A stretch of DNA of 63,969 nucleotides, filler included, from Hausera hauseri (Eukaryota), in the NCBI GenBank assembly GCA_046269625.1. It is 11 parts of 11 records of this genome, joined end to end, with 100 filler letters (N's around TTAATTAATTAA, not from the genome) between each part and the next. Parts side by side here need not be neighbours in the genome. Positions count along the whole stretch, not along the records: positions 42,890 to 49,242 come from JBJURY010108764.1; 10 more parts are not named here. The stretch is one strand, 5' to 3'. Under the pieces are notes generated by a model, which did no database searches, was not told the DNA's origin, and saw only the letters and a program-made list of their open reading frames with translations. Shown piece after piece: positions 11,485-54,078 of the stretch. The position numbers and the translations under genes were made by a program. Every line of letters starts with the position of its first letter. Position 1 is the first letter of the stretch.

Positions 11485-12068
11485 ATGTACTTTCACATAC
11501 ACTTCCGCATCAGTGGTGGCATGCATTCATCGCTCACTATTGATACCACGGACAAACCCACCCAACCACAGAACTCCATCACTGACCTCCCCAAAGAAAG
11601 TGCTTCGAACACTCCGACACAGCACATACTCCCCGCTCATTCACCCTGCACAGAAAACTTCTTCGATAGCCAAAGTTCTACCCAAACTTGACTAAAACTG
11701 CATCAATTCTGGCTCCAGTCACAAAACGTCGTCGACCCCTTATCCAAAGCCAACAGCCTGTATTTTCATTTACCTGCTTCCATCAAAACCAAAATTACAA
11801 ACATCATCGAAATCCTTCACCACACCGGTCCATATGCTCAACTGTATAATGCCGTTCTTAAGCTCACTGAGCCGTCAATCGACTTAATCATTCAAAGATT
11901 CTTCAACGACAACGCCATTGACCTACAAAAGCCTTCTGAATTCTCGCGCACATCTTTGTCTCACCTCAATACCCTTGGCGTAACATCTGAGCATAGTACA
12001 GAACTTCTTCGCCGTTACTTTTTAAATGCATTGCCCCTTCAAATAAGAGCTTTTCTCACTGTGGTCGA
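11485..12068 (+). mobile_element. gag: CsRn1-clade gag 5' part, degenerate
   Basis: Homologous to 12930-13943 (HIHFRISGGM vs HIHSRIRGGM; LTEPSIDLIIQRFFN; LLRRYFLNALP). Confidence 0.8.
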
Positions 12069-24057: not shown

Positions 24058-26819
24058 ACGTAACATTCTCTAATTTTAACTTTGATAAACTCTGATTCTT
24101 GATATACCCAGAATCTGTGGCCGCTTGTTGTCGTTAATTGTTCTGGATCGGCTTCTGGGCATTTTTCTAGATCGACCAAAGAATATTTCTGTCCTTCACT
24201 GGGTTTTGAACAATCGTAGGCTACAATACCTACCGCTTTCGGCATCAATAATGATGTTATTAAAAGTATCTGGAGAATTTCCATAAAAGACATACCCGTT
24301 ATACCCGTCTTTGGGGTGGTCATATTTGACTGATTGGTCGTGGGACCGTCCGTCATTCTTCCATATCCTTCTGCTCTTGGCATTAAACTTGCTAACCAAC
24401 CACCTCTACATTGAACCCAGTTCTCCAAGGTGTCCTTTAGAATTTTAACTGTTACTTTAATATTTCGTTCAATTTCTTCTAAATTTTGTGTCTGATAATT
24501 TATCACTATAACTTTATAAAGGAGGTAGGCCACTGCTGTTTGCGCTTTTTCCCGTGTGATTCCTGTGGCGAATATCTTCTCCAAGATATCTTGTTCATGT
24601 AGTTCATTAATCCTTTCTTCATTAATGTTTTCATAAAACTGTCTACTAATTCTCAACATTGTATTACGTAGTGTCTGGAATAAATTGTCAGGAATCGTTA
24701 CCTGCATATCAAATGATGCGAATGATGTGTGCAACTTTGCTAAAAGAGTTCTTAATAAGGGGTCTATATCCACCGATTCCGTCATCGCATCCGTTCCTGC
24801 CAGTAATAGACGTCTTACTATTTCTTCATTTCTATCCTTTTTATTGCGGATATCGCTTATTTTTGTTCCTTTAGGCCTTCCCCGTCTTTTGGCCTCTATT
24901 TGTATTGTAGCTTCTTGAGTATCACCTAAAGGATGTTCTTCTACTTCTTGGGGTTCTATTTCTCTTAGTATCTCGCCTATCGTTTCTTCTGCCCTGGCTT
25001 CGGGGCGTATTTCCGTTATCGTAATTGGATTATATACTTCGCCTCTGCATCCAATCCTTAATAGATTATCGTAACTATATAAAGTTCTTCCATAAAAATT
25101 TAATCCGTACATTTTATCTTTATAGAAGGATTCTGACTCTTCTATCTTTTCCCGTAATGTTTGTATATCGTCAGTCTCTTTCATTCTGATAACTCTTATA
25201 TCCTGATTTCCTTCCCTTATTGTTATTCGTATTGCTTCATTTCTTCCTTTTTCTTCTTCAGCCGCTTTGGCTAATACTGTACGTGCTATTTCTCTTACCG
25301 GACTTGTATCATGAGCAAGTAAGAACAGCTGGAACAAAATTTCGTTTATTTTCTCTGACGATACCTTATTATTAATTAACTTAAGTATTGTCGTGGTCGC
25401 TTCATCTACGTTTACTATGTTTTCCGGATCAATGGTTGTTACCAGTTGGATTATATCCTCTTCTTCGTCCAGATCCACATCTGTCTTCTGTATGACCTTT
25501 TCAAATATCGTTTCATCAAATATTTTTACAGGTTCGTCTTGATCTGATGAGGGGGCGCTTCCTTGAGGCGTACTAAGGTTACTTTTCTTTCTTCCTCTTC
25601 TTTTTTTCTCCTTTTCTACTTCACTTTTTTCTGTTGACGTTTCCCTTAATTCTACATCAATTATCTTTTTGTTGCCTTTCTTTCTTCCTTGACGCGATAT
25701 TTTTTCTTCTGGTTTATCTCCTACCATACAAATTCTATTTTCTCTTAACCGTCGTTGTTGTGTTTTATAGTCTTTTAATTCCATAGCTAATTGAGTTTTC
25801 ATACGTTGAGCCATTATATCGTTTACATAATTTACACTCTCTTTCTTCTTATCCTTTTTCTTTGTTTCAGGTTTACTAATACTATCCTCTGTTTCATATT
25901 CTTTATCGGATGATTCATCTGACGTAGCTGATATGTATTCCTTCTTTGGTTGCTTATTCTTATTATTCTTCGAAGGCTCCCTTCTACGAGATCTGCATGT
26001 CTTTGCTATATGTCCATACTTGTTACAATTGAAGCATTTTAATCGTCCTTCAGAATCTATATTCGGCAGTGCTCTTCCATCTTTTACAGAAGGCTTCTTT
26101 TTGTAGTTTGACTTTTCGCCATCATTTCTTAATTTAAACCTAACTTTCTTTTCTACATCTGACTCTGCCTCTGTGGCTGATGTCTGGGAAGGACTTCGAT
26201 TTCTATTATAACTTTGATATTTCTGCATGCTATTATTCTTTCGTCTATCCTGATTATTATCGTAACTTTTAGGTTTATTCCACCTATACAATTCAGCATC
26301 TCTTTCAGCTTTACGTGCCTTTCTTATGGCTTCCTGAAAGGTAGGTGGGTCAGCCTGTAAAATAATACTTCTTAATTTGCCTTCTAATCCGTATTGGAAT
26401 TGAGCCAACAGTGCATTACTTCTTATTGCTGCATCTGGGTACGCCCTTGCGGCTAGCTTTTCCAGTGCACAGACAAAATCTTGAACTGTCTCATCCTTTC
26501 GTTGCCTCCGTCTTATAAACTCTTCTATCCTCCCCTTTCCAGAGGGATCAACTAGAAACTTTTGAGGTAACTTATCTTTGACAGTTTTCCAATCCTTTTT
26601 ATCTTCTTCTGGCATCTGGAAGTAAATCGTCAATGCAGTTCCTTTTAGATGGAGAGGCAACCTCTCCATTCTTTGTTGGTCATTCCATCCAAAACTTTTT
26701 GAATATACTTCATATTCCATTATGAAGTCTTGTACATCTTCTTTTCCGGAGAATTTCTTCATTGGGAGGGTGAAATCAGCCTTCGACTGAATCACCTGTT
26801 CTACGTTATGATTTGCCAT
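24058..26819 (-). CDS. LTR retrotransposon polyprotein: Gag-CCHC, ubiquitin-like, AT-hook, Bcl-2-like, signal peptide, envelope start (cut by gap)
   Basis: Open frame over 900 aa; FSGKEDVQDFI..LPLHLKGTA gag, CFNCNKYGHIAKTC, KRRGRPK, EKIFATGITREK and LENWVQCRGGW, LLITSLLMPKAVG-IVAYDC. Confidence 0.85.
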
Positions 26820-26985
26820 GGCTACTTCTTCTTCACTTAAGTGCTGTATGTATTCTAAACCGTAAGGTTCGTTATCTTCTTCTTGTATGTTATTCTCTTG
26901 ATACGGGGTTCCTCTTCGAGTCGTTATTTTGATAGGATACTTTCTATTTCTTCTTATCTAAAGGTATCTTCTTTATTCAGTTTAT

Positions 26986-42889: not shown

Positions 42890-45800
42890 GAACTGTTTCG
42901 GTTTGGATTGTTATTTTTTAATGCGGTTTTCGAATTTGTGTAGCTGGATTCTTGCTCTTCAGGCTCATTTCCGATTTTTACTTTTTGGGATTTTGTTGAT
43001 TGGGGAAATGATTGTTTCTCTCAAAAGTTTAGAATTCAAAAAGGTCAGTTTGAAATTCTGATCGATTTTTTGATTCAGATTTTTGGGTAATTAAGAGATC
43101 CTAACACAGGTATTCATCCCGACTCTACTCGGGTTAATATATTGCTCAATATTATAATCGGGTTTAGTGTTTCTTTTGGCTCAAAATATACTGGTAAATC
43201 GTCGTCTTGACAGATTTGTGCGAATATCAACAATTCCGTTTTAGGCGGAATGTTTTCGTCGACCGGAATCCATACTTCTCCGGGTTCTCTCTCTTTATTA
43301 ATCTTAGTGCCTTTCATTGGTCCGAGCTCAAATAACTTCGAGGTATTTAAATCTATCGCAACGTTTGGTAGACGTCCTGATATATCACACCCTAATACTA
43401 CATTGTCTGTCAGTTGTTCCATTATAGAAAATTCATGTTGGAATGTTTGTCCCATTATTTTAAGATTTGGATTCCACTTAAATTTTGGTCTTGATTCTTG
43501 TCCGAAAGCTCCTATACTTCCGCGGTCGGTTTCTAGTGGTAAACGTAGTTGATTCAGTAATATTTTTGGTATCGATCCGCCCTTTATAAACGATTTCTCT
43601 GATCCGGTATCTATTAGTGCGTATACTTCCCAATCGTCAATACTAATTTGGCGAATGGTCTACCTTCTTTTATCTTAGGTTGTTTAACGACGGATATCTT
43701 GTACCCTTTCACACTAATTTATGGTGCTTTATTCTCGGTTACTTATCCTAATTCGTCAATAGGATATAATCCATTATTTACACTGTTTTTGTTATCTCGT
43801 TCCGACGTACTGATTAGCGGTTCTAGGTTGTTTGGTTTATGGAAAGATTGCATTCTTGGATTATCCCAAATTAATGATTTAGTTTCTATATTCCGTGAAA
43901 TTCTTGGAGAGTATATTAGCTTGCGATCATCTACCGGCTGGCAGTATAATTCGGATTTTTCCCTGGTTCGGTACATTTTTCGTAACACGCCGTATTGTTT
44001 TGTCCCTTCATAATGGTCTTCATAATTGAATGGTTTTCGATAGATTTCCGAACTATAGGAGTTAATAGATCTTTTATTTCAGCCTTCATATTGTGGTGCT
44101 AAAGGAGGCAACATTGGCAAGGGCGGCCTAAGCGTCTTACGATTGCCTATCTTGGAGACCGCGTCTCCTCCCTTAGGCTCATCATCATCCGAATCGTTTT
44201 TTGGAAATTTTGTATTTCTTTGTCCTATAAAAAATATAGGTTTTCTCTTTCGTTTCCGATTATAATAACCAATATGTCTCTCCACGTCGCTTTTCCATTT
44301 GTTTTCTTCATAGGCCTTCAAATATTTTCCAAACGGTGTTACGATTGTGGTCAAAATTTTGCATGAAAATCCGGTTAGGGTAGATATTTCATAGCCGTTT
44401 ATAACGGAATGAATTATAGCCTTTACGAGTTGTACCAAGAAGTAGATGGTTAAAAATCCCGATGCAGCTTATCCGAAAATTAAAAATCTTTCCCAGATTT
44501 TATATAGTATTTCTGTAGTGACTCATTGATAATGATTAACGCCAAGTAGGGATTCCCATTTTGCTTCATAGCGAGTGTCATCCATCACCGTTAATATGGC
44601 TCTGTTTAGCTCATGTGTACGCTGTCGAGGGAAGGCTAAGAATTGTCCGAAAGCTTCAATTTCCTTTGGTCTGTAAATCCCTTTACTTGCAATGTCGACG
44701 AACTTATCATCTGTTATTCCATTTAATAAATTTGTTCCGGTTAATTTGCCAGGCATAGCTATAATTCCTCCATTTGGCAGACTTACCCAATCTGTCACAT
44801 TTCTCTTAAACATAGGATCGCCTAAACCGGCTTTGCATTCTTTCAAAACAGTTGGTTGTGTCGCGTTTTCTAGCAAGACTCTAGTGAGTCGCATAGCCAA
44901 TCGAGGTACGTTTTGATATATGACTGGCAACTCTTGGATACAACGTTTTTCTTCTACGTTTATGGATACCTCCAGTTTTTCACACTCGTAGGTCAACAGG
45001 ACTTCTTCAGTGAGTCTTCCGAAGATTCCTTTTTCATCGGAATTACAGATGGCGCTAGTTCTGGATTTGCAGAGATTAAAGCTGGTTTGGTTCCCATAAT
45101 TTCTATATCCAATTTACAGTCGTTGGCGATCATCTTGTGGTATAATTCTGCTAGTCCAATCGGCCCTTTGTAAAAAAAGTAATCGTCTCTATTTTTCAAA
45201 TAATCATCCATTTTTACATCTTGTGTTTGGAGAGCAAAAGTAGTTATTGCAGCTTCTGCTACTAAGAAGGCTTCATAATTCGTGGTGTACATTACTACGT
45301 TACATCGAGAATGCATTTGCTTCTTAATGAACTTTAATCCGTGATCTTCGGAGATTATTATCGTGGGTGTAGACTGTTCAGCTACGTCCTTCCTTGACCT
45401 GGCATTATTGTCGGTTGTGTTTACATATCTTTTCCCGTGGTTTCGTTAAAGTTTATCTCTTTTATTTTAATACAGTTACAATCATTCATAGGTGACAGAG
45501 TCCAAATAACTATCGAATTTAGGAAAGTACAGGCAACATCTTGGATATGACACTTCTGATTTTCTGTATATGTTTTTGTAACACTATGGAACATCTCCTT
45601 TTGGTTCCTTATCTCTGTCTCATAGAAATCAACTACTACTATTACTGCTTCTCTTCCTTTTCCTGTATCGTATTCACCTCCTTTACAGTATCCGGTGTGC
45701 ATGTATAATTTCCGAATTGCTACTTTATACACTCGAATTATCTTTCCTGGTTTGGCTTCTAACTCCATCCCATCCCATCTCAATCTTCCTGTTTCCTTGG

Positions 45801-48800
45801 CTTGTTTGCATTGTTGTCGATCTAAATCCATTATGAATTAGCGGTTTCGTTGGTTTTACGAGCGACGAATGTTTATGCATATTTCCACAGTGAAAAATGC
45901 TTCACGATCGTCGTAACATACACTCTATCCCATTTATTGCGATTAGTTCGCGTTGTTGATACAAGAAATACTTTTTCTTATTGGTTACTAATTTGTGGGG
46001 TCTGGCATCCTCACACAACTCCAGATCCATTATGGAATATTTTTGAACTTTTTAAAATTTATCACAGTCATATACCGTGATTGCACTGAGTTGTCTTATT
46101 AGCATCATAAGTGTTATTAGTTTAATCATCCAGTCGGATTCACTACTTCGCATTGAGTTAGTTGGTACTAAATTTCTTACCACATCTTCAAATCTAGTGG
46201 TTGGCCTGTATCCATCTCCGTCGTCAAATAGCTTGGACCATTTTATCTCTCTAGGTATCTTCCTAGCAGCTTTTCTGATCAATCCAATGGTTCTATTGAA
46301 TTCGTTTTCATTTAGGGGTTTGTTTTGATTGCCAAGTACAATGCTACTTTCCTTAATTCTTCCTCAGTATTCTCTACCATAATTTTCTCGTGAGGTAAGT
46401 TGCTTTTTTTCATTTTGAACCGAAATGTTCTCATTATCCATGCTGCGTCGTATATTGCCTTTTCTTTTTCATCTAACATCTTGTTTCTTGGTCCCGAATA
46501 GTTCATTATTTTTATAATGTTTCTCAGTAACTCGTTTAATTCTTCGCTATCGGAGTTAATCGCGGGCATGGATAATTGCCTTAGTTCTCGTATCAGAGCT
46601 GCACTTTGGTCAATATCATCTCATATTTTCCTCGGCCTTCCAACTTGTCGTTTCTGTTTCGACGCAGTTGGTATTGCTTCGCTAATCGGTACTAGATTCT
46701 TATCGTATTGTTCCTTATCTTCCTCACTTTGGAGGTAGTCAAAATACATGGCAGGGTCTCGGATTCCCATGCGTTCAAAGCAATGTTCATCTCACTTTCC
46801 TTACAGCCTCGTCTTTCGTCTGTTCGCCGGTTATTATAGCCACTATTCGATTTGATTCCTATGGAATAATGCCAACATCTATTAGTAACTCAAGTTCGTC
46901 CAGTATCCTACTTCGGAAATATGACCGATAATTTACTTCATCTTTCCCACTGTTTTGTACTACCCATTGTTTTACTTCTCTAACCGATGTTACCGTTATG
47001 CATGCAATTTCGCTATTCCATCCATTCAGCTTATATTTTTACCTTAACCGTCGTTTCAGGTTTATCTTTCAAGAAATCAGTATTTCTTTATCAATAGTCT
47101 GGGTACTGAGCTATAAACGGTGTTTTCGCTTGATAGTTTGGTTAATGTAAGGATGAACTGTCTCAATTTGCTCTCAGTCATGTTGACGTTAATCTGCTCA
47201 ATTAATTCCCTTTCGGCCCGTGCGGGATCCAAGTCCATCTCCATATCAAATCGCCGGTCTGTTGGAAGAATATCCTTTTGTTGAAGTTGATGATGTGGGC
47301 AAATATCAAACGTCGATAGATCGCATATGGATATTTCATCCATGGGCCTTGTTGTCAAGTATCGTACACCTAGACGGACACATTTTAGTCTCAAGATCTT
47401 TTCTTGTTTCGCCGATAATTCCATTTCTTCCATCATGATATACAATTCTGTGAATTTTATTTCCTGATATATACTCATAAATGTTAGTCTCAATAACTCG
47501 TTAAATTCAACTCGAAGTTTGCCTCAGTTTTGTAAGCATCTAGGTTACGGAGTATTTCTTAGCTGTTGTTTTAATATCGGTTCACATTCTGAATACTTCC
47601 TTAGACGATATTTCATCACACTCACTAATCTGTCTAACAGTTCAATCCATTCTTTGAACTGGTTATCTATCATTGGTTTCGCATTTATTACATTTTCTAA
47701 TCGTTCGTAGGTGTCATTCAATTTATCATCTGGACCTTCCTTCTTGCATTCGTCAAGTTCTAAAATACGTTTTCGTTATGTTTTGTACTTCTTGATTCTC
47801 TGCATACGTTATTTTATTCTTACATCTGTAGATTTCGGAGCGCCTTTTATCTTGCGAGGCTATGCGAACTCCTATGTCCGCATATTCTTTGGGTGCACTG
47901 TATGCGATCTTACACATTTCCATTATGAGATGAATGTCTACAGGTTCTATACCTAGTATTAAAAATTCGTTTTCATCTTATTCGAATATTGGTTTACTTT
48001 TGAGGCGATAGATTACTGCACTCTCTATTTCTATCATTAACTTCTCTAAATTCCGTTTTGCTCGCTTCTGTTTTAAATCCGTCTCCTTGGGCAGTCGCCA
48101 CTTTACTCTTAATTTCCATTTCTTGATTATTCCATGTAACGGTGAAGTCGATTCCGTTTTTTATCCATGAATCCATTTTGTCTTCCATTTTTCAAGTGAC
48201 TTCTCCATAATTTCATCCATTTCCTCTGGTTCTTTCTTCTTCAAGGTATCGTTTAAATTCTTTATACATTCTTTCGGCGAACTGGTTCTTTTCCAGACAC
48301 ATCTTGAGTTTTTATATGCCTTAATTCTTTCCTTTAATTTATCTGCATTTTTCCAGAACTTTCTGATCTTCCACACCTTTCCGTCTAGCCTTTTAATTCG
48401 TTCCGTGCCATCAGTCTCACCTTCGCTATCGGGTAATGGACATCTCATTTATCTCTGCTCGCGTCTCCTACTGTTACCCTTGTACTTGGAATATCGGGAT
48501 GTCCTCTGTCCGCATCTTGGACTTAAGTTTTCTCTGCATTATCGCTTTTAAATGGCGATCTTGATCTACCTTTTGGCTTCTTTTTAAGTGATGGACTGCG
48601 ACCTCTATTTTTCGTTATTTTAAGGACTAATGGAGCTATATATTCACTCTCAATTTCGTCAGCCACACCTTGACGTCCTCTGCCAAGGTTTCAGATTCAG
48701 CGTCCAAGTCTACATTGGGCGATGTCTCTGCTGCTTCCACATTACTTGCTTTTTCTGTCACTACGGGCTTTACAGGCACGTTCTTCTTGAGAACCATATT

Positions 48801-49242
48801 ACTGTTTTCAGGCGCTATTGAGTACTTGTATTTTGTTTGAGGTTTAACTAGTCAGTGATATACTTCTAATATCCGTACGTTATCTTCATATTCCTTTCCA
48901 GCCTTTAGGATTTGCGGATTGTTTGTTTCTCGTTGACTTTTCAGGTATTGTCGTTAATCTTGAATATCAAAAATTGCGTCTATGTCACCTCTGGAACTAC
49001 ATTTCGCCTCTAGATCTTCTTGCGTCTTAATTATACTTGACTTCCTCGGTTCGGTAAACGATACGCTTCAAGGATTTGGACATGACCGTGCTATGTGGCC
49101 TTTCTTACCACATGTATAACATATTAAGTTTTGGTTTCTACCAATCCGTTGTCGACCGTCTTCACTTATGGGCGATTTTGAGGGGCTGTCTCTCCTAGAA
49201 TAGCCCTGATTTAAGGATTCTATCCGACTACTTCCGTCATAT
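42890..49242 (-). mobile_element. decayed large LTR retrotransposon: CCHC, UBL, AT-hook, helical domain, chuvirus-like env, aspartic protease
   Basis: CYTCGKKGHIARSC (~49100), UBL-like (~47040-46860), GRPRK (~46635), signal+ITVYDC (~46080), CIQELPVIY..TRVL..GIY, TM (~44450), ALIDTGSEKSF (~43610), VVLGCD. Confidence 0.85.
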
Positions 49243-49342: not shown

Positions 49343-51880
49343 GCTTGTGTATGTTCACAAGTACTCTCCAATGCGGGGCAGTTCTTATATTCAGCTTCCG
49401 GAATGGATCGCTAATAAAACTGCATGTGTCAATGTCCATAATAATAACATGTGGTTAATGTATGCCATTCTATCAAAACTCGTGCCTGATCAACATAAAT
49501 CTTCACGAGTTTGGCAATAAGGATGTGCAACACAATTATGACTTCCAATGTATCACATTCCCTCCATCCTTAGATGAAATTAAGAAGTTCAGTCGAAGAA
49601 ACAACATATCAACCAACATCTGTGGACTGGATGAGGAGGACAAATTTTATCACATGCAGATATGATACCAAATTGGAACATCATAAGTATCTACTCCTAC
49701 TAGACGATGGAGAAAAGAAACATTATGTTTGGATCAAGAACTTGGAGCGTCTAGTCAGATTTCAAATTACGAAACATATAGCAAGAATCGAAATATGCAA
49801 ACGATGCTTTTCCCATTTCAGTGGTGATTCAGCAGTAGACAAGCTTGCAGAGCACAAGATGTATTGCAGCAACAATTACTGTGTAAGGCCAGAATTTCCC
49901 AAGGAACACTATACTGAATTCAAGGAGCTCCAGAAGAAGCTCAAGGCACCAATAGTAATCTATTGCGACTTTGAAATTATTCTCCGGCCAGTTCACAGCT
50001 GCACTCCCAGTCCTCAACATAGCAGCACAACGGCATAACAATATCATGAACTCTCATCGTATTGCATGTATGCCAAAGGACTGGACAGTGAACCATTTTT
50101 ATTCAGAAGTCCAGATGCAGCAGCATATTTCATGAAACGACTTAAAGACGTGGCTTATAAGCTTGAAAACATGCTTTAGCAACATAAGGATAATGAGCAT
50201 GTCGAAGCAACAAGAAAAATGGCGCAAGGCAACATGTTACTTGTGCGACAAGTCCTTCACCAAGGATAATCATAAAGTCAGGGATCATTGCAATTTTACA
50301 GGCAAATATCGAGTTGCAGCATGCAACAAATGAAATCTGCGTTGCAAAACATTCACACATGTGCCTGTAGTGTTCAACAATCTCAGTGGCAACGATTCCC
50401 ACTTCATTGTTCGGGAACTGGGCAACATTGATGGGAACATTGATGTCATTTCCAATAGTGAGGAAAAATACATCACCTTCAAGAAGCATGTGAGCCGCAT
50501 TACACTTCGATTCATAGACAGCTCGTCACTGGATAGTTTAGTCAAGACCCTCCCTGCAGAAGAACTCAAGGAGACGAAGCGGTTCTTCCCCACTACATTT
50601 GACCTCGTCAAGAGGAAAGGCGTGTTTCCTTACGACTACATAACCTGATGGGAAACACTGGATGATACCTCATTTCCGGACAAGAAGGTCTTTTACAATA
50701 ACCTCTTTGATTGCAATATCAGTAATGCTGACTATCAGCATGCCTAGAACGTCTGGTAGGCATTCCAATGCCGAACATTAAGGGAACACAGCGACATATA
50801 CCTCAAGACGGACCTACTGCTTCTGACATGTCTGAGAGTTTCAGGGACGTTACAATGAAGAGCCATGTTTTGGATTCGGTTCATGTCTTTACGAGTCCAG
50901 GGATGATTTGGTCAGCTATGCTGCGATATACTGGTATTAGGCTGCAGATCATTAAGGATTACGACATGATCCTTATGATCGAGAGGCATTAGAGGCGGAA
51001 TATGCCAGGCCATTAATCGGTATAGCGAGGCCAACAAGTATATGGCCCAGTATGACTCAGCCAAGGAATTCTCACATATATCATACCTGGATGCCAACAA
51101 CTTGTATGGATATGCAATGAGTGTCCCATTGCCACATGATAACTTCAAATTGGTCGAGAAGCATGAAAACATCCCTGTATTTGATCTGGGTCCCGCTGGA
51201 GATACGTGCTATATACTGGAGGTGGATATGGAATATCCTGCTTCCATCCACGCAAGGCATCAACAGCCTCATGGAAAGCATAGAAAGCTGCTCTGCCATC
51301 TTGGTAATAGGGAAAAGTATGTAGTTCACTACATAAATCTCCAGCAGGCAGTTAGACATGGACTCCGCATCAAAGATCCATAGAGATCGTCAGTTCAGCC
51401 AATCCATGTGGCTGCAGCCCTACACAGATCTCAATACGAAGCTGTGGACAAATGTCAAGAACGACTTTGAGAAGGACGAGTTCAAGCTTTGCAAGAACTC
51501 GGTCTTTGGCAAGACCATGGAGAATATCCGGAACAGGATCAACATCGAGCTAGTATGTGACTGGAAGCGAACAAAGTTTATTGCCAAACCTAACTTCCAC
51601 AGAAGAACAATATATATGGAGAACTTGGTCAGCATCCATATGTTGAAAACATCCTTGGTATTCAACAAGCCCATATGTGGGTATGGCAATATTGGATCTA
51701 TCAAAAACTTTAATGTATCAATTCCATTATGACATCGTGGTCCCCAAGTTCAAGTCGATGCAGCTGATGTATATGGATACTGATAGTTTTATCTATCAGA
51801 TCCATATTGAAGACATTTATGAGGACTTTGCCCAATTGACTCAACACATGGATACCTAGGACTATCCGAAGAATCACCCA
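49343..51880 (+). mobile_element. polB: Polinton pPolB (subfamily B) pseudogene, truncated after YMDTDS
   Basis: HYVWIKNLERL, IYCDFE, DHCNFTGKYR, KRKGVFPYDY, YLDANNLYGYAM, KNSVFGKTMEN, LMYMDTDSFIY. Confidence 0.93.
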
Positions 51881-51888
51881 ACGTTGAC

Positions 51889-54078
51889 ATGGCTACATAT
51901 TTCATTATTTCCAAATTCACTTCAAAGCATAATGAGTTTTGTTATTTGTGCTCCTCAAATAATAGGTTTGTTTAGATTTGCAACTTTTACAAATTTTGCA
52001 TGGCGTAGAAACACGAGGAGCAGAATTGTCACAGTGTAATGCAGCATTATTTTGTATACCAGCACAATAGGACCCAATATTATTTGTGTTCTGCATGTGA
52101 GGTAGTGTGCCGGACCGGTTACGAGGAATTTTACAACCAACATAAACAGCATTTGGATTCGTTCACAAAATCGAAGAAAGAAGTATTTAACAGTAATATG
52201 CCAATGACAACAAGTGTCCCAAAAGCAAATCAGATGTGCGGTTCATATGATTATTGTATATCCAGAGCACATAACCCGCAAGAGTGCCATGAAACGATGC
52301 AGCGGTATTATGGATACAAATCCAAAAGTATCCAATAATATATATGTCCGGGATGTGAGACTGTATGCGGTGCATATTACATACAGTTCTATTATGAGCA
52401 CAAACATCATTTGAGTCACTTCGCATCAAAATCAAAGAAGGCCATCTATAATAAGCAACATAGTATTGATGCATCTGCTTCGCAGTATGATTCTTCGCAT
52501 TATTAGAGTATTCAAACGCGCAGCCGCATCATGTACAGCACCATCATGCGCAGCAGCATCATACGCCCATCAGGTGCAGCGGCTCCAACAAAAAGTCAAA
52601 AACAGCGGCCAGTTAATGCTTCAGCATTACAGAGAAAATGCCGCAGATATTTTATTAATGCAACTGGTCAAACAACGCTCCATAAGTTCCTGGAAAATAC
52701 AAAGGAAGGAACAGAGGAGATTCTTTAGGACAACATGGCTGAGCTTAAAGCCGTTAAGGTAAATATGAAACTGGAGGCCACATACATCAATATTGATTGT
52801 GAAAAATCCAATAGGGCATTCAAGACCAAAAATAGGTCCATTTTTGAAGCCACCAATATGGTAGAATGGCTGCATGAAGAGCATGCGAAGCTGATCCGTG
52901 AAACCGGGGAGAACCAGGATAAGAAGAGCGGATGGACTCTGGCAACCATCAAGAGATTGCTTGTGTATGTGCACAAGTACTCTCCAATGCAGGGCAGTTC
53001 CTATATTCCGCTTCGGGAATAGGTCGCTAATAAAAAACCATGTGTCAATGTCCATAATAATGACAACATGTATTTCATGTATCCTATTTTATGTAAACTC
53101 GTACTGGAGCAAAAACATGCAGCAGATCGAGTTTGGCTATATAATGATCTGAAGCACAAATATGACTTCCAATGTATTAAGTTCCCTCCACCCTTATATG
53201 AAATTAAGAAGTTCAACCGAATCAACAACATATCCATCAACATCATTTGATTGGATGAGGCGGACAAATTCTATCCCCTGCAGATATATGATACGGAATT
53301 GGAAGATCATAGGGATTTGCTCCTACTAGACAATGGGGAAAAGAAATATTATGTTTGGATCAAGAACCTTGAGCATCTAGTCAGATCCCAAATTACGAAA
53401 CATAAGGAAAGAATAGAAATATATAAACTATGCTTTTCCTATTTTAGTGGTAATTCAGCTGTGGACAAGCTTGCAGAGTACAAAATGTACTGAAGCAACA
53501 ATTACTGTGAAAGGCAAGAATTTCCAATGGAGGACTATATTGAATTCAAGGAGTTCGAGAAGATCAAGGTTCCAATAGTTATCTATGCGACTTTGAAGCT
53601 ATTCTCCGGTCAGTTCACAGCTGCATTCCCAGTCCCCAACATACCAGCACAACGGCATACCAATATCATGAACTCTCATCGTATTGCATGCATGCCAAAG
53701 GACTGGACAGTGAACCACTTCTATTCAGAGGTCCAGGTGAAACAACACATTTCATGAAAAGACTTGAAGATATGGCTCATAAGCTTGAAAACATGCTTAA
53801 GCAGCATAAGGATAATATGAGCATGTCGTGGAAACAAGCAGAAGAATGGGGCAAGGCAACAACATGTTACTTGTGCAACAAGTCCTTCACCAAGAAAAAT
53901 CATAAAGTCAAGGATCATTGCCATTTTACAGGTGCATATCGAGGAGCAGCATGCAACAGATGCAGTCTTCGCTGCAAAACATATACATATGTGCTTGTAG
54001 TATTTCACAACCTCCGTGGCTATGATTCCCACTCCATTGTTAGGGAACTGGGAAGCATTGAAAAAAACATTCATGTGA
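51889..54078 (+). mobile_element. polB: 5' part of a further pPolB (subfamily B) copy with N-terminal Zn-repeat region
   Basis: YLCSAC..FYNQHKQHL, YICPGC..FYYEHKHHL, KSGWTL, GSSYIPL, CYLC..DHCHFTGAYRGAACNRC, FHNLRGYD. Confidence 0.9.

What the first reader, a model, noticed from the sequence alone, without database searches (positions are those of the whole stretch)
43100..47050. Envelope gene placed between gag and protease
Seen: in a diverged second family member the order is CCHC, UBL (SVREVKQWV..YRSYFRSRILDELELLIDVGI), GRPRK, helical domain, signal+ITVYDC, full Cys-rich ectodomain, TM, then ALIDTGSEKSF..VVLGCD. Known: env normally follows pol. The UBL/AT-hook/helical/env order matches 24058-26819 despite low identity. 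Inference: an old gag-env-pol design in which pol would be translated after a membrane-spanning env.
Basis: partly seen in the sequence, partly recalled or inferred. Interest (0 to 1): 0.7.

Follow-up and report, generated by a model that had tools for sequence, protein, structure and literature searches.

The report
Retroelement with envelope inside its polyprotein
A decayed copy of a virus-like jumping gene, likely from a flatworm, carries its envelope gene between capsid and enzymes in what other copies show is one reading frame, a layout already published for planarian elements; its far end likely uses stop-codon readthrough.

Summary
All named motifs lie on the minus strand in the stated order; the CCHC is at 49080-49121, outside the given range. 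The order belongs to the family and is not a nested insertion. Other copies are collinear at 82-86% identity and run on into RT, RNase H and integrase. Of 16 copies spanning env TM to protease, 2 are stop-free, 4 hold only point stops or a local compensated shift, and 10 are frameshifted at scattered sites. Copy L019 reads 1,034 aa from mid-Env into RT. A natural sister-family copy has one 3,279-codon frame: capsid, CCHC, UBL, Bcl-2 fold, gB-type Env, PR, RT, RH, IN, then a second membrane protein. This layout is in print: planarian Burro elements (PMC6431247) and GAG-ENV-POL errantiviruses (PMC13524379). The scan also found it before in other genomes. The target family's helical domain did not match Bcl-2 (inconclusive). 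Not found in print: the post-integrase membrane protein, and readthrough-type stops (TGA-CAR-YYA in 13 of 16, TGA-CGG in 9 of 11 copies) before an exonuclease-like ORF.

The parts
49080..49121 (-). Gag CCHC zinc knuckle (capsid lies beyond the contig end)
   Evidence: PF00098 in family copy L025, E 3e-7
47051..49079 (-). Long decayed Gag-side linker (charged, helical), function unassigned
   Evidence: collinear with open frames of copies L025, L028, L030
46870..47050 (-). Ubiquitin-like domain, broken here
   Evidence: motifs; Pfam ubiquitin E 0.004 in copy L028, under cut-off; beta-grasp model in sister family, Z 7.0
46627..46641 (-). GRPRK AT-hook-like motif
   Evidence: GRPKG at the same place in the sister copy
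46190..46620 (-). Helical domain in the slot of the Bcl-2-like domain; its own fold is not assigned
   Evidence: model of a stop-free natural copy (L023), pLDDT 68, 1 of 5 models confident; no Bcl-2 match; sister-profile HMM E 0.025 in a small set
46082..46132 (-). Internal signal sequence before mature Env (cleavage inferred just before ITVYDC)
   Evidence: sequence; same cassette in sister family and in relatives
44480..46081 (-). gB-type (class III-like) Env ectodomain, broken by stops and frameshifts
   Evidence: PF24664; E 4e-91 in the open sister frame
44330..44468 (-). Env transmembrane segment plus a second hydrophobic or amphipathic stretch
   Evidence: sequence; hydropathy peaks 1441-1463 and 1468-1496 in the sister frame
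43660..44329 (-). About 220-codon cytoplasmic tail or linker from Env to protease; point stops and a frameshift shortly before the protease in this copy
   Evidence: open in L032 and L019
43381..43650 (-). Aspartyl protease (DTG)
   Evidence: PF13975, PF00077; followed by RT, RH and IN in other copies
24058..26954 (-). Sister-family copy: open Gag-UBL-Bcl-2-Env-start frame, cut by the contig end
24369..24782 (-). Bcl-2-fold domain of the sister family; BH1 NWGR replaced by TREK, BH2-like W..RGGW kept
   Evidence: VIA-align Z 12.1, top 27 rows all Bcl-2-fold; all listed Foldseek rows Bcl-2 family, best E 3e-3; profile vs BCL-XL E 6.5e-5

Best explanation
This is a dead copy of a Ty3/gypsy LTR retroelement family whose Gag, accessory domains, gB-type envelope, protease and RT lie in one reading frame, and whose polyprotein is likely threaded through the ER membrane and cut into parts. 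Shown: the order and the single frame (target family from UBL to RT in overlapping natural frames; sister family in one copy from capsid to beyond integrase). Inferred: the internal signal sequence keeps Gag-UBL-helical domain in the cytosol and sends Env into the lumen. The Env TM returns the chain to the cytosol, where the tail and PR-RT-RH-IN are made and then released by the element's protease. A second signal after integrase exports a further type I membrane protein (FN3-like by a weak lead). Signal peptidase would free Env and this protein. Gag and Pol start out membrane-tethered next to Env, which would suit budding of enveloped particles. Gag, Env and Pol would be made 1:1:1 unless splicing intervenes. 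The terminal UGA is likely leaky and would add a catalytically altered DEDDh-exonuclease-like domain. In the sister family the Bcl-2 fold, anchored by the Env signal as a tail anchor, would act on host cell-death control.
For: Collinear copies at 82-86% over the full 3.95 kb. PR followed by RT, RH and IN. Stop-free env-to-PR(-RT) frames in L032 and L019; no indel site shared by more than 3 of 16 copies, and the recurrent sites are homopolymer runs with both signs. UBL to Env in one frame with point stops only in L028 and L029. Sister frame with all domains in order, ending at contig base 11913, between LTRs 93.5% alike. 7 of 7 public proteins have env before a protease, and 5 of 7 go on to RT-RH-IN. 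Signal+TM pair after integrase in P0005-P0008 and in both local families. Purifying selection on the sister Bcl-2 domain, dN/dS about 0.03, like capsid (12 usable pairs, dS near saturation). Published precedent: PMC6431247 section 7.
Against: No single target-family copy is open from Gag to integrase; continuity is pieced together from overlapping natural frames, and the CCHC-to-UBL linker was not shown open across every junction. 10 of 16 copies are frameshifted between env TM and protease. Two hydrophobic segments follow the Env ectodomain; if both crossed the membrane, Pol would be luminal, so one must be non-spanning (assumed, not tested). The target helical domain gave no Bcl-2 match. No LTR or primer-binding site was found for the target family. 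Topology, cleavage and particle formation are untested.
Confidence: 0.85

Rival explanations
1. The protease belongs to a separate element nested behind an env gene, or the join is an assembly chimera.
For: The assembly is fragmented (909,086 contigs) and the window contig ends before RT. Nested inserts occur in the family: a gag-like hit follows RNase H in L027.
Against: 16 copies span env TM to protease collinearly. Stop-free frames cross the join (L019, L032). The same join is in the sister family and in 7 independent public proteins.
Confidence: 0.02
2. One frame on the DNA, but expression is mainly regulated by splicing: a spliced Gag-Pol message skips env, and env or the 3' ORFs come from subgenomic messages.
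For: Equimolar Gag, Env and Pol is unusual for retroelements (general knowledge). The exonuclease-like ORF has its own Met 32-63 codons after the stop in many copies.
Against: A frame kept open across both env junctions in two families and in distant relatives is needed only if the full chain is translated. Extra protease domains right after the env TM or after integrase in several relatives fit release of membrane-tethered parts.
Confidence: 0.2
3. A BEL/Pao (Anakin-like) element that captured a chuvirus glycoprotein recently.
For: The env falls in the Monjiviricetes fusion family PF24664; BEL/Pao share the PR-RT-RH-IN order (general knowledge).
Against: Pfam shows Ty3 capsid, gag-asp protease, RT_RNaseH and Integrase_H2C2, and none of the 14 families hit is Pao-type. 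Env divergence of 31-38% with matching RT divergence (51-64%) across relatives points to long co-descent.
Confidence: 0.03

Closest known systems
Burro / GYPSM1 giant gypsy-like LTR retrotransposons of planarians (Arkhipova and Yushenova 2019, PMC6431247, section 7 read in full; Grohme 2018 and Jurka 2007 only as cited there)
   Same: One polyprotein with Gag and CCHC, a Ubi2/SUMO-like domain, a BCL2-like domain, then env in frame before PR-RT-RH-IN; env with hits to mononegavirus fusion proteins. [quoted passage not shown]
   Different: About 13 kb and 3,279 codons in the sister copy, against over 30 kb and 4,873-5,140 aa. No MATH, BIR, ankyrin or dUTPase hits. The section names no post-integrase membrane protein, readthrough stop or exonuclease-like ORF. 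The target family's helical domain is not recognisably Bcl-2.
GAG-ENV-POL 'ancient errantiviruses' with HSV/gB-type Env of Platyhelminthes, Bryozoa and Nematoda (Chary and Hayashi, eLife 2026, PMC13524379; abstract, section 14, part 1 of 2 of section 5, word-search passages, rows of supplements 1 and 2)
   Same: Order, gB-type Env flanked by two hydrophobic segments, Ty3/gypsy Pol. By eye, the env here resembles the Smed_errantivirus C1a env rows; not aligned.
   Different: The main text has no 'polyprotein', 'single ORF', 'exonuclease', 'ubiquitin' or 'frameshift'. Its elements are intact and mostly multi-copy at over 98%; target copies here are 80-90% alike and mostly broken. Figure supplements could not be read.
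SIRE1 (Sirevirus) stop-codon suppression after pol (as cited in PMC2829016, passages); readthrough types I and II (PMC3159437, passages)
   Same: A single stop between the pol frame and a downstream ORF, with CAR-YYA or CGG after it.
   Different: Here the stop follows a post-integrase membrane protein and leads to an exonuclease-like ORF, not env; readthrough is untested.

Membership tests
Ty3/gypsy (Metaviridae) | PR-RT-RNase H-integrase order | tested here: met
   target copies L022, L029, L031, L032; sister frame
Ty3/gypsy (Metaviridae) | Gag with capsid and CCHC knuckle | tested here: met
   PF19259 E 9e-8 and PF00098 in sister; CCHC in target
Ty3/gypsy (Metaviridae) | LTRs, primer-binding site, target-site duplication | tested here: inconclusive
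   sister: 815-base LTR pair and TGG-initiated PBS, but no clean TSD or purine tract; target: no PBS found by pattern in 5 contigs
Ty3/gypsy (Metaviridae) | RT clusters with gypsy references | not tested
GAG-ENV-POL gB-type errantiviruses (Chary and Hayashi) | HSV/gB-type Env | tested here: met
   PF24664 E 4e-91 in sister; E 4e-33 in target copy L021; env not folded
GAG-ENV-POL gB-type errantiviruses (Chary and Hayashi) | gag-env-pol order | tested here: met
GAG-ENV-POL gB-type errantiviruses (Chary and Hayashi) | Placement in the Platyhelminthes C1a clade | not testable with these tools
   published sequences seen in a supplement, compared by eye only
Burro/GYPSM1 | env in frame between gag and pol | tested here: met
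Burro/GYPSM1 | Ubiquitin/SUMO-like domain upstream of the BCL2 slot | tested here: met
   Pfam ubiquitin E 0.004; beta-grasp matches Z up to 7.0; both weak
Burro/GYPSM1 | BCL2-like domain before env (sister family at 24058) | tested here: met
Burro/GYPSM1 | BCL2-like domain before env (target family) | tested here: inconclusive
   shallow alignment, 1 of 5 models confident; best Z 7.5 to unrelated bundles; HMM E 0.025; hhalign 0.5%
Burro/GYPSM1 | Giant size (over 30 kb, ORF1 about 5,000 aa) | tested here: not met
   sister element about 13 kb, 3,279 codons; target length not measured in one contig
Burro/GYPSM1 | MATH, BIR, ankyrin, dUTPase cargo | tested here: not met
   no such Pfam hits in the sister frames; ankyrin repeats occur in relative P0002
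BEL/Pao Anakin | Pao-type Gag/Pol with env after pol | tested here: not met
   env precedes pol; gypsy-type Pfam set

The most novel reading that the evidence does not exclude
These elements are a 'complex' lineage of flatworm-type proviruses with a four-pass, flavivirus-like polyprotein. Besides Env they make a second surface protein after integrase, whose tail is extended by programmed UGA readthrough into a disabled DEDDh exonuclease. Two diverged families have reached this by two different classic readthrough signals (CAR-YYA and CGG).
Probability: 0.5. Interest if true: 0.55.

Novelty: new member of a known kind. Interest (0 to 1): 0.3.

Why it matters
The headline (env between gag and protease) is real but published. 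What this adds: direct copy-level evidence for one frame, structure-level support for the Bcl-2 fold that the review noted only as a motif, and a compact relative of Burro that is easier to study. If the post-integrase membrane protein and the readthrough are real, they are two undescribed accessory functions of enveloped retrotransposons, and the readthrough can be tested with a short reporter.

Tried and rejected
Programmed frameshift between env and protease: rejected; indels are scattered, and the recurrent ones sit in A6 and T5 runs with both signs. Nested element: rejected. Bcl-2 fold for the target helical domain: no match, inconclusive. Protein search with the UBL-Bcl-2 region among longer proteins: no hit. 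Codon-position test for coding constraint after the ORF1 stop: uninformative in the target family, since control regions also lacked a third-position excess; weak in the sister family, 181/179/277, like the ORF1 tail and far below the ORF after its Met, 108/82/376. RNA stem-loop after the stop: z -1.9, -2.2, -2.8 and +1.1 in 4 copies, with no common structure. Insect host: odorant-receptor and cuticle families gave no match, but the controls were prokaryotes, so this is no evidence. The six best COX1 hits are from six unrelated animals without the flatworm code, so the assembly is mixed. No RNA holder was listed among public runs. Contigs of runs X1 and X2 cover the sister env-pol stretch in short pieces; X1 may be the source sample, so it is not counted. 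ESM Atlas: FN3-like features for the post-integrase protein scored only 0.85 (lead). The Burro1 paper (PMC13047482) and Sacco et al. 2022 are not held; I know them only as cited. No RT or env tree against named references was built.
Full report
Setting. The window is a string of short contigs joined by N spacers, from an 869 Mb assembly of 909,086 contigs. The finding lies on contig C108764 (window 42890-49242), minus strand. The assembly is mixed: the six best COX1 hits are only 68-84% alike. Among the weaker hits, a 13,994-base contig and a broken, NUMT-like copy read AAA opposite Asn (3 of 3; 3 of 3 and 2 of 2) and ATA mostly opposite Ile, at about 50% T. That is the flatworm/echinoderm mitochondrial code (recalled). 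A flatworm host is therefore likely but inferred.

Observation. Every motif quoted is present in the stated order; the CCHC is at 49080-49121, outside the given range. Three of four env-region fragments hit PF24664 (Monjiviricetes fusion glycoprotein), and the last frame hits aspartyl protease profiles. This copy is dead, with many stops and frameshifts, and the contig ends before RT.

Is the order real? A DNA search of the assembly gave 46 matches from 40 scored of 4,211 candidates; five other contigs match nearly the whole 3.95 kb at 82-86%. Mapping domains onto 16 loci showed env, protease, RT, RNase H and integrase in this order in L022, L029, L031 and L032, and no RT or integrase upstream of env in any of them. 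One deleted derivative (L023) goes from env straight to the 3' ORFs.

Frame continuity. I used only natural stop-free frames as rulers. Sixteen of 20 loci examined span env TM to protease. Two are unbroken: L032 (the ruler itself) and L019, whose single frame of 1,034 codons runs from mid-Env into RT. Three keep the frame with point stops, one has a local compensated shift, and ten are frameshifted. No indel site is shared by more than 3 of 16 copies, and the two recurrent ones lie in homopolymer runs with gains and losses, so there is no programmed shift. UBL, helical domain, signal and Env share a frame with only point stops in L028 and L029. The CCHC-to-UBL linker was not shown open at every junction.

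Sister family. The 24058-26954 frame belongs to a set of sub-lineages 72-90% alike. One natural copy (C511016) has a frame with Ty3 capsid, CCHC, Bcl-2 (E 1.6e-4), Env (E 4e-91), protease, RT, RNase H and integrase in order. It continues through a signal sequence, about 380 residues and a TM, to contig base 11913 (3,279 codons by coordinates). After a single stop come 469 more codons in frame, all between 815-base LTRs that are 93.5% alike. A PBS follows the 5' LTR (tRNA-His-like by recall). No clean target-site duplication or purine tract was seen.

Accessory domains. A model of the sister UBL-helical region (19 sequences, mean pLDDT 66, helical part mostly 80-94) matched the Bcl-2 fold. VIA-align gave Z 12.1 (rmsd 3.4, 129 aligned), with the top 27 rows all Bcl-2-fold, and beta-grasp domains at Z up to 7.0 for the UBL part. 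All listed Foldseek rows were Bcl-2 family, best E 3e-3. The profile found BCL-XL at E 6.5e-5, with TREK opposite NWGR. dN/dS was about 0.03, as for capsid (12 pairs, dS near saturation). Weak Bcl-2 hits just before env also occur in 1 of 7 and 4 of 12 public relatives. Against this reading for the finding itself: the target family's helical domain did not match Bcl-2 by fold or by profile comparison, and scored only E 0.025 with the sister profile. Its model was shallow. It sits in the same slot and may be a degenerate copy, but that is not shown.

Relatives. An env search among 1,452-4,622 aa proteins gave 7 hits at 36-38%. All 7 have env before a protease, and 5 continue to RT, RNase H and integrase. 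P0004, P0005, P0008 and P0019 carry three or four protease-like motifs, including after the env TM or after integrase. P0005-P0008 have a post-integrase signal plus TM pair. None carries a name.

Mechanism (inferred). Four membrane crossings would place Gag-UBL-helical domain in the cytosol, Env in the lumen, the tail and Pol in the cytosol, and the second membrane protein in the lumen. Signal peptidase and the element's protease would separate the parts. This needs one of the two hydrophobic segments after Env to be non-spanning, which is untested.

The 3' end. Both families have the post-integrase membrane protein and an in-frame last ORF. That ORF resembles RNase_T/DEDDh exonucleases by language-model features (0.90, 29 of 30 hits in that set). 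Its first acidic motif looks altered (my reading, from recall), and it is 85-87% conserved among sister sub-lineages. The stop is TGA-CGG in 9 of 11 sister copies. It is TGA in 16 of 16 target-type copies, followed by CAR-YYA in 13; two of the 16 are tied to this family's env on their contigs, the rest by 80-91% identity. These are the type II and type I readthrough contexts of PMC3159437 (passages; type I is given there with UAG). In the window, 8 and 39 of 2,428 TGAs have such contexts. Against: both ORFs have a Met of their own soon after the stop, the codon-position tests were weak or uninformative, and no shared stem-loop was found. I put readthrough at about 60%.

Comparison with what is known. 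PMC6431247 section 7 (read in full) describes Burro polyproteins with Ubi2/SUMO-like, BCL2 and env in frame between gag and pol. PMC13524379 reports GAG-ENV-POL gypsy elements with gB-type Env in Nematoda, Bryozoa and Platyhelminthes. Burro1 also carries an IAP region, as cited in PMC13465017 (passages). The element works like Burro and fits the GAG-ENV-POL group. It is not filed as Burro, since size and cargo differ. I reached the Burro review passage through earlier scan notes and then checked it. For the post-integrase membrane protein and the readthrough I found nothing in the papers read or in searches, none of which was aimed squarely at these two features. Grohme 2018, Sacco 2022, the Burro1 paper and the eLife figure supplements were not seen and could cover them.

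Verdict. A real observation, correctly interpreted, and already published as a layout: a new member of a known kind, interest 0.3. The 3' readthrough and second membrane protein are the parts worth following.

Noticed in passing
G000:C348823 about 8056 (L102:3057) and 15 related loci; G000:C511016 11914-11916 (L074:4915-4917): The ORF1 stop has readthrough-type contexts in both families (TGA-CAR-YYA 13 of 16; TGA-CGG 9 of 11), in frame with a DEDDh-exonuclease-like ORF.
   Followed up: partly
L074:3500-4914; L102 after integrase; P0005-P0008: A second signal-ectodomain-TM protein follows integrase in the same frame; FN3-like by a weak language-model lead (0.85); fast-evolving (about 60% among sister sub-lineages).
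   Followed up: partly
P0004, P0005, P0008, P0019: Relatives carry three or four aspartyl-protease-like domains in one polyprotein, some right after the env TM or after integrase; P0004 and P0005 also have C2H2 fingers, and P0002 has ankyrin repeats.
   Followed up: no
L023 (G000:C226075): Internally deleted derivative that keeps the UBL/helical region, part of env and the 3' ORFs but lacks pol; possibly a non-autonomous sub-lineage.
   Followed up: no
L102 just after the ORF1 stop: A short stretch in another frame resembles the C-terminal end of the sister family's last ORF, by eye; unexplained.
   Followed up: no
window 49343-54078: Decayed DNA-polymerase-B-like fragments of Polinton/Maverick type, by eye from the sequence; not tested.
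   Followed up: no
window 20150-23957: Long tetranucleotide-type tandem array with extreme AT skew.
   Followed up: no
G000: The assembly mixes at least seven animal mitochondrial types, one with the flatworm-type code and a NUMT-like copy; host assignments in this 'genome' need care.
   Followed up: partly
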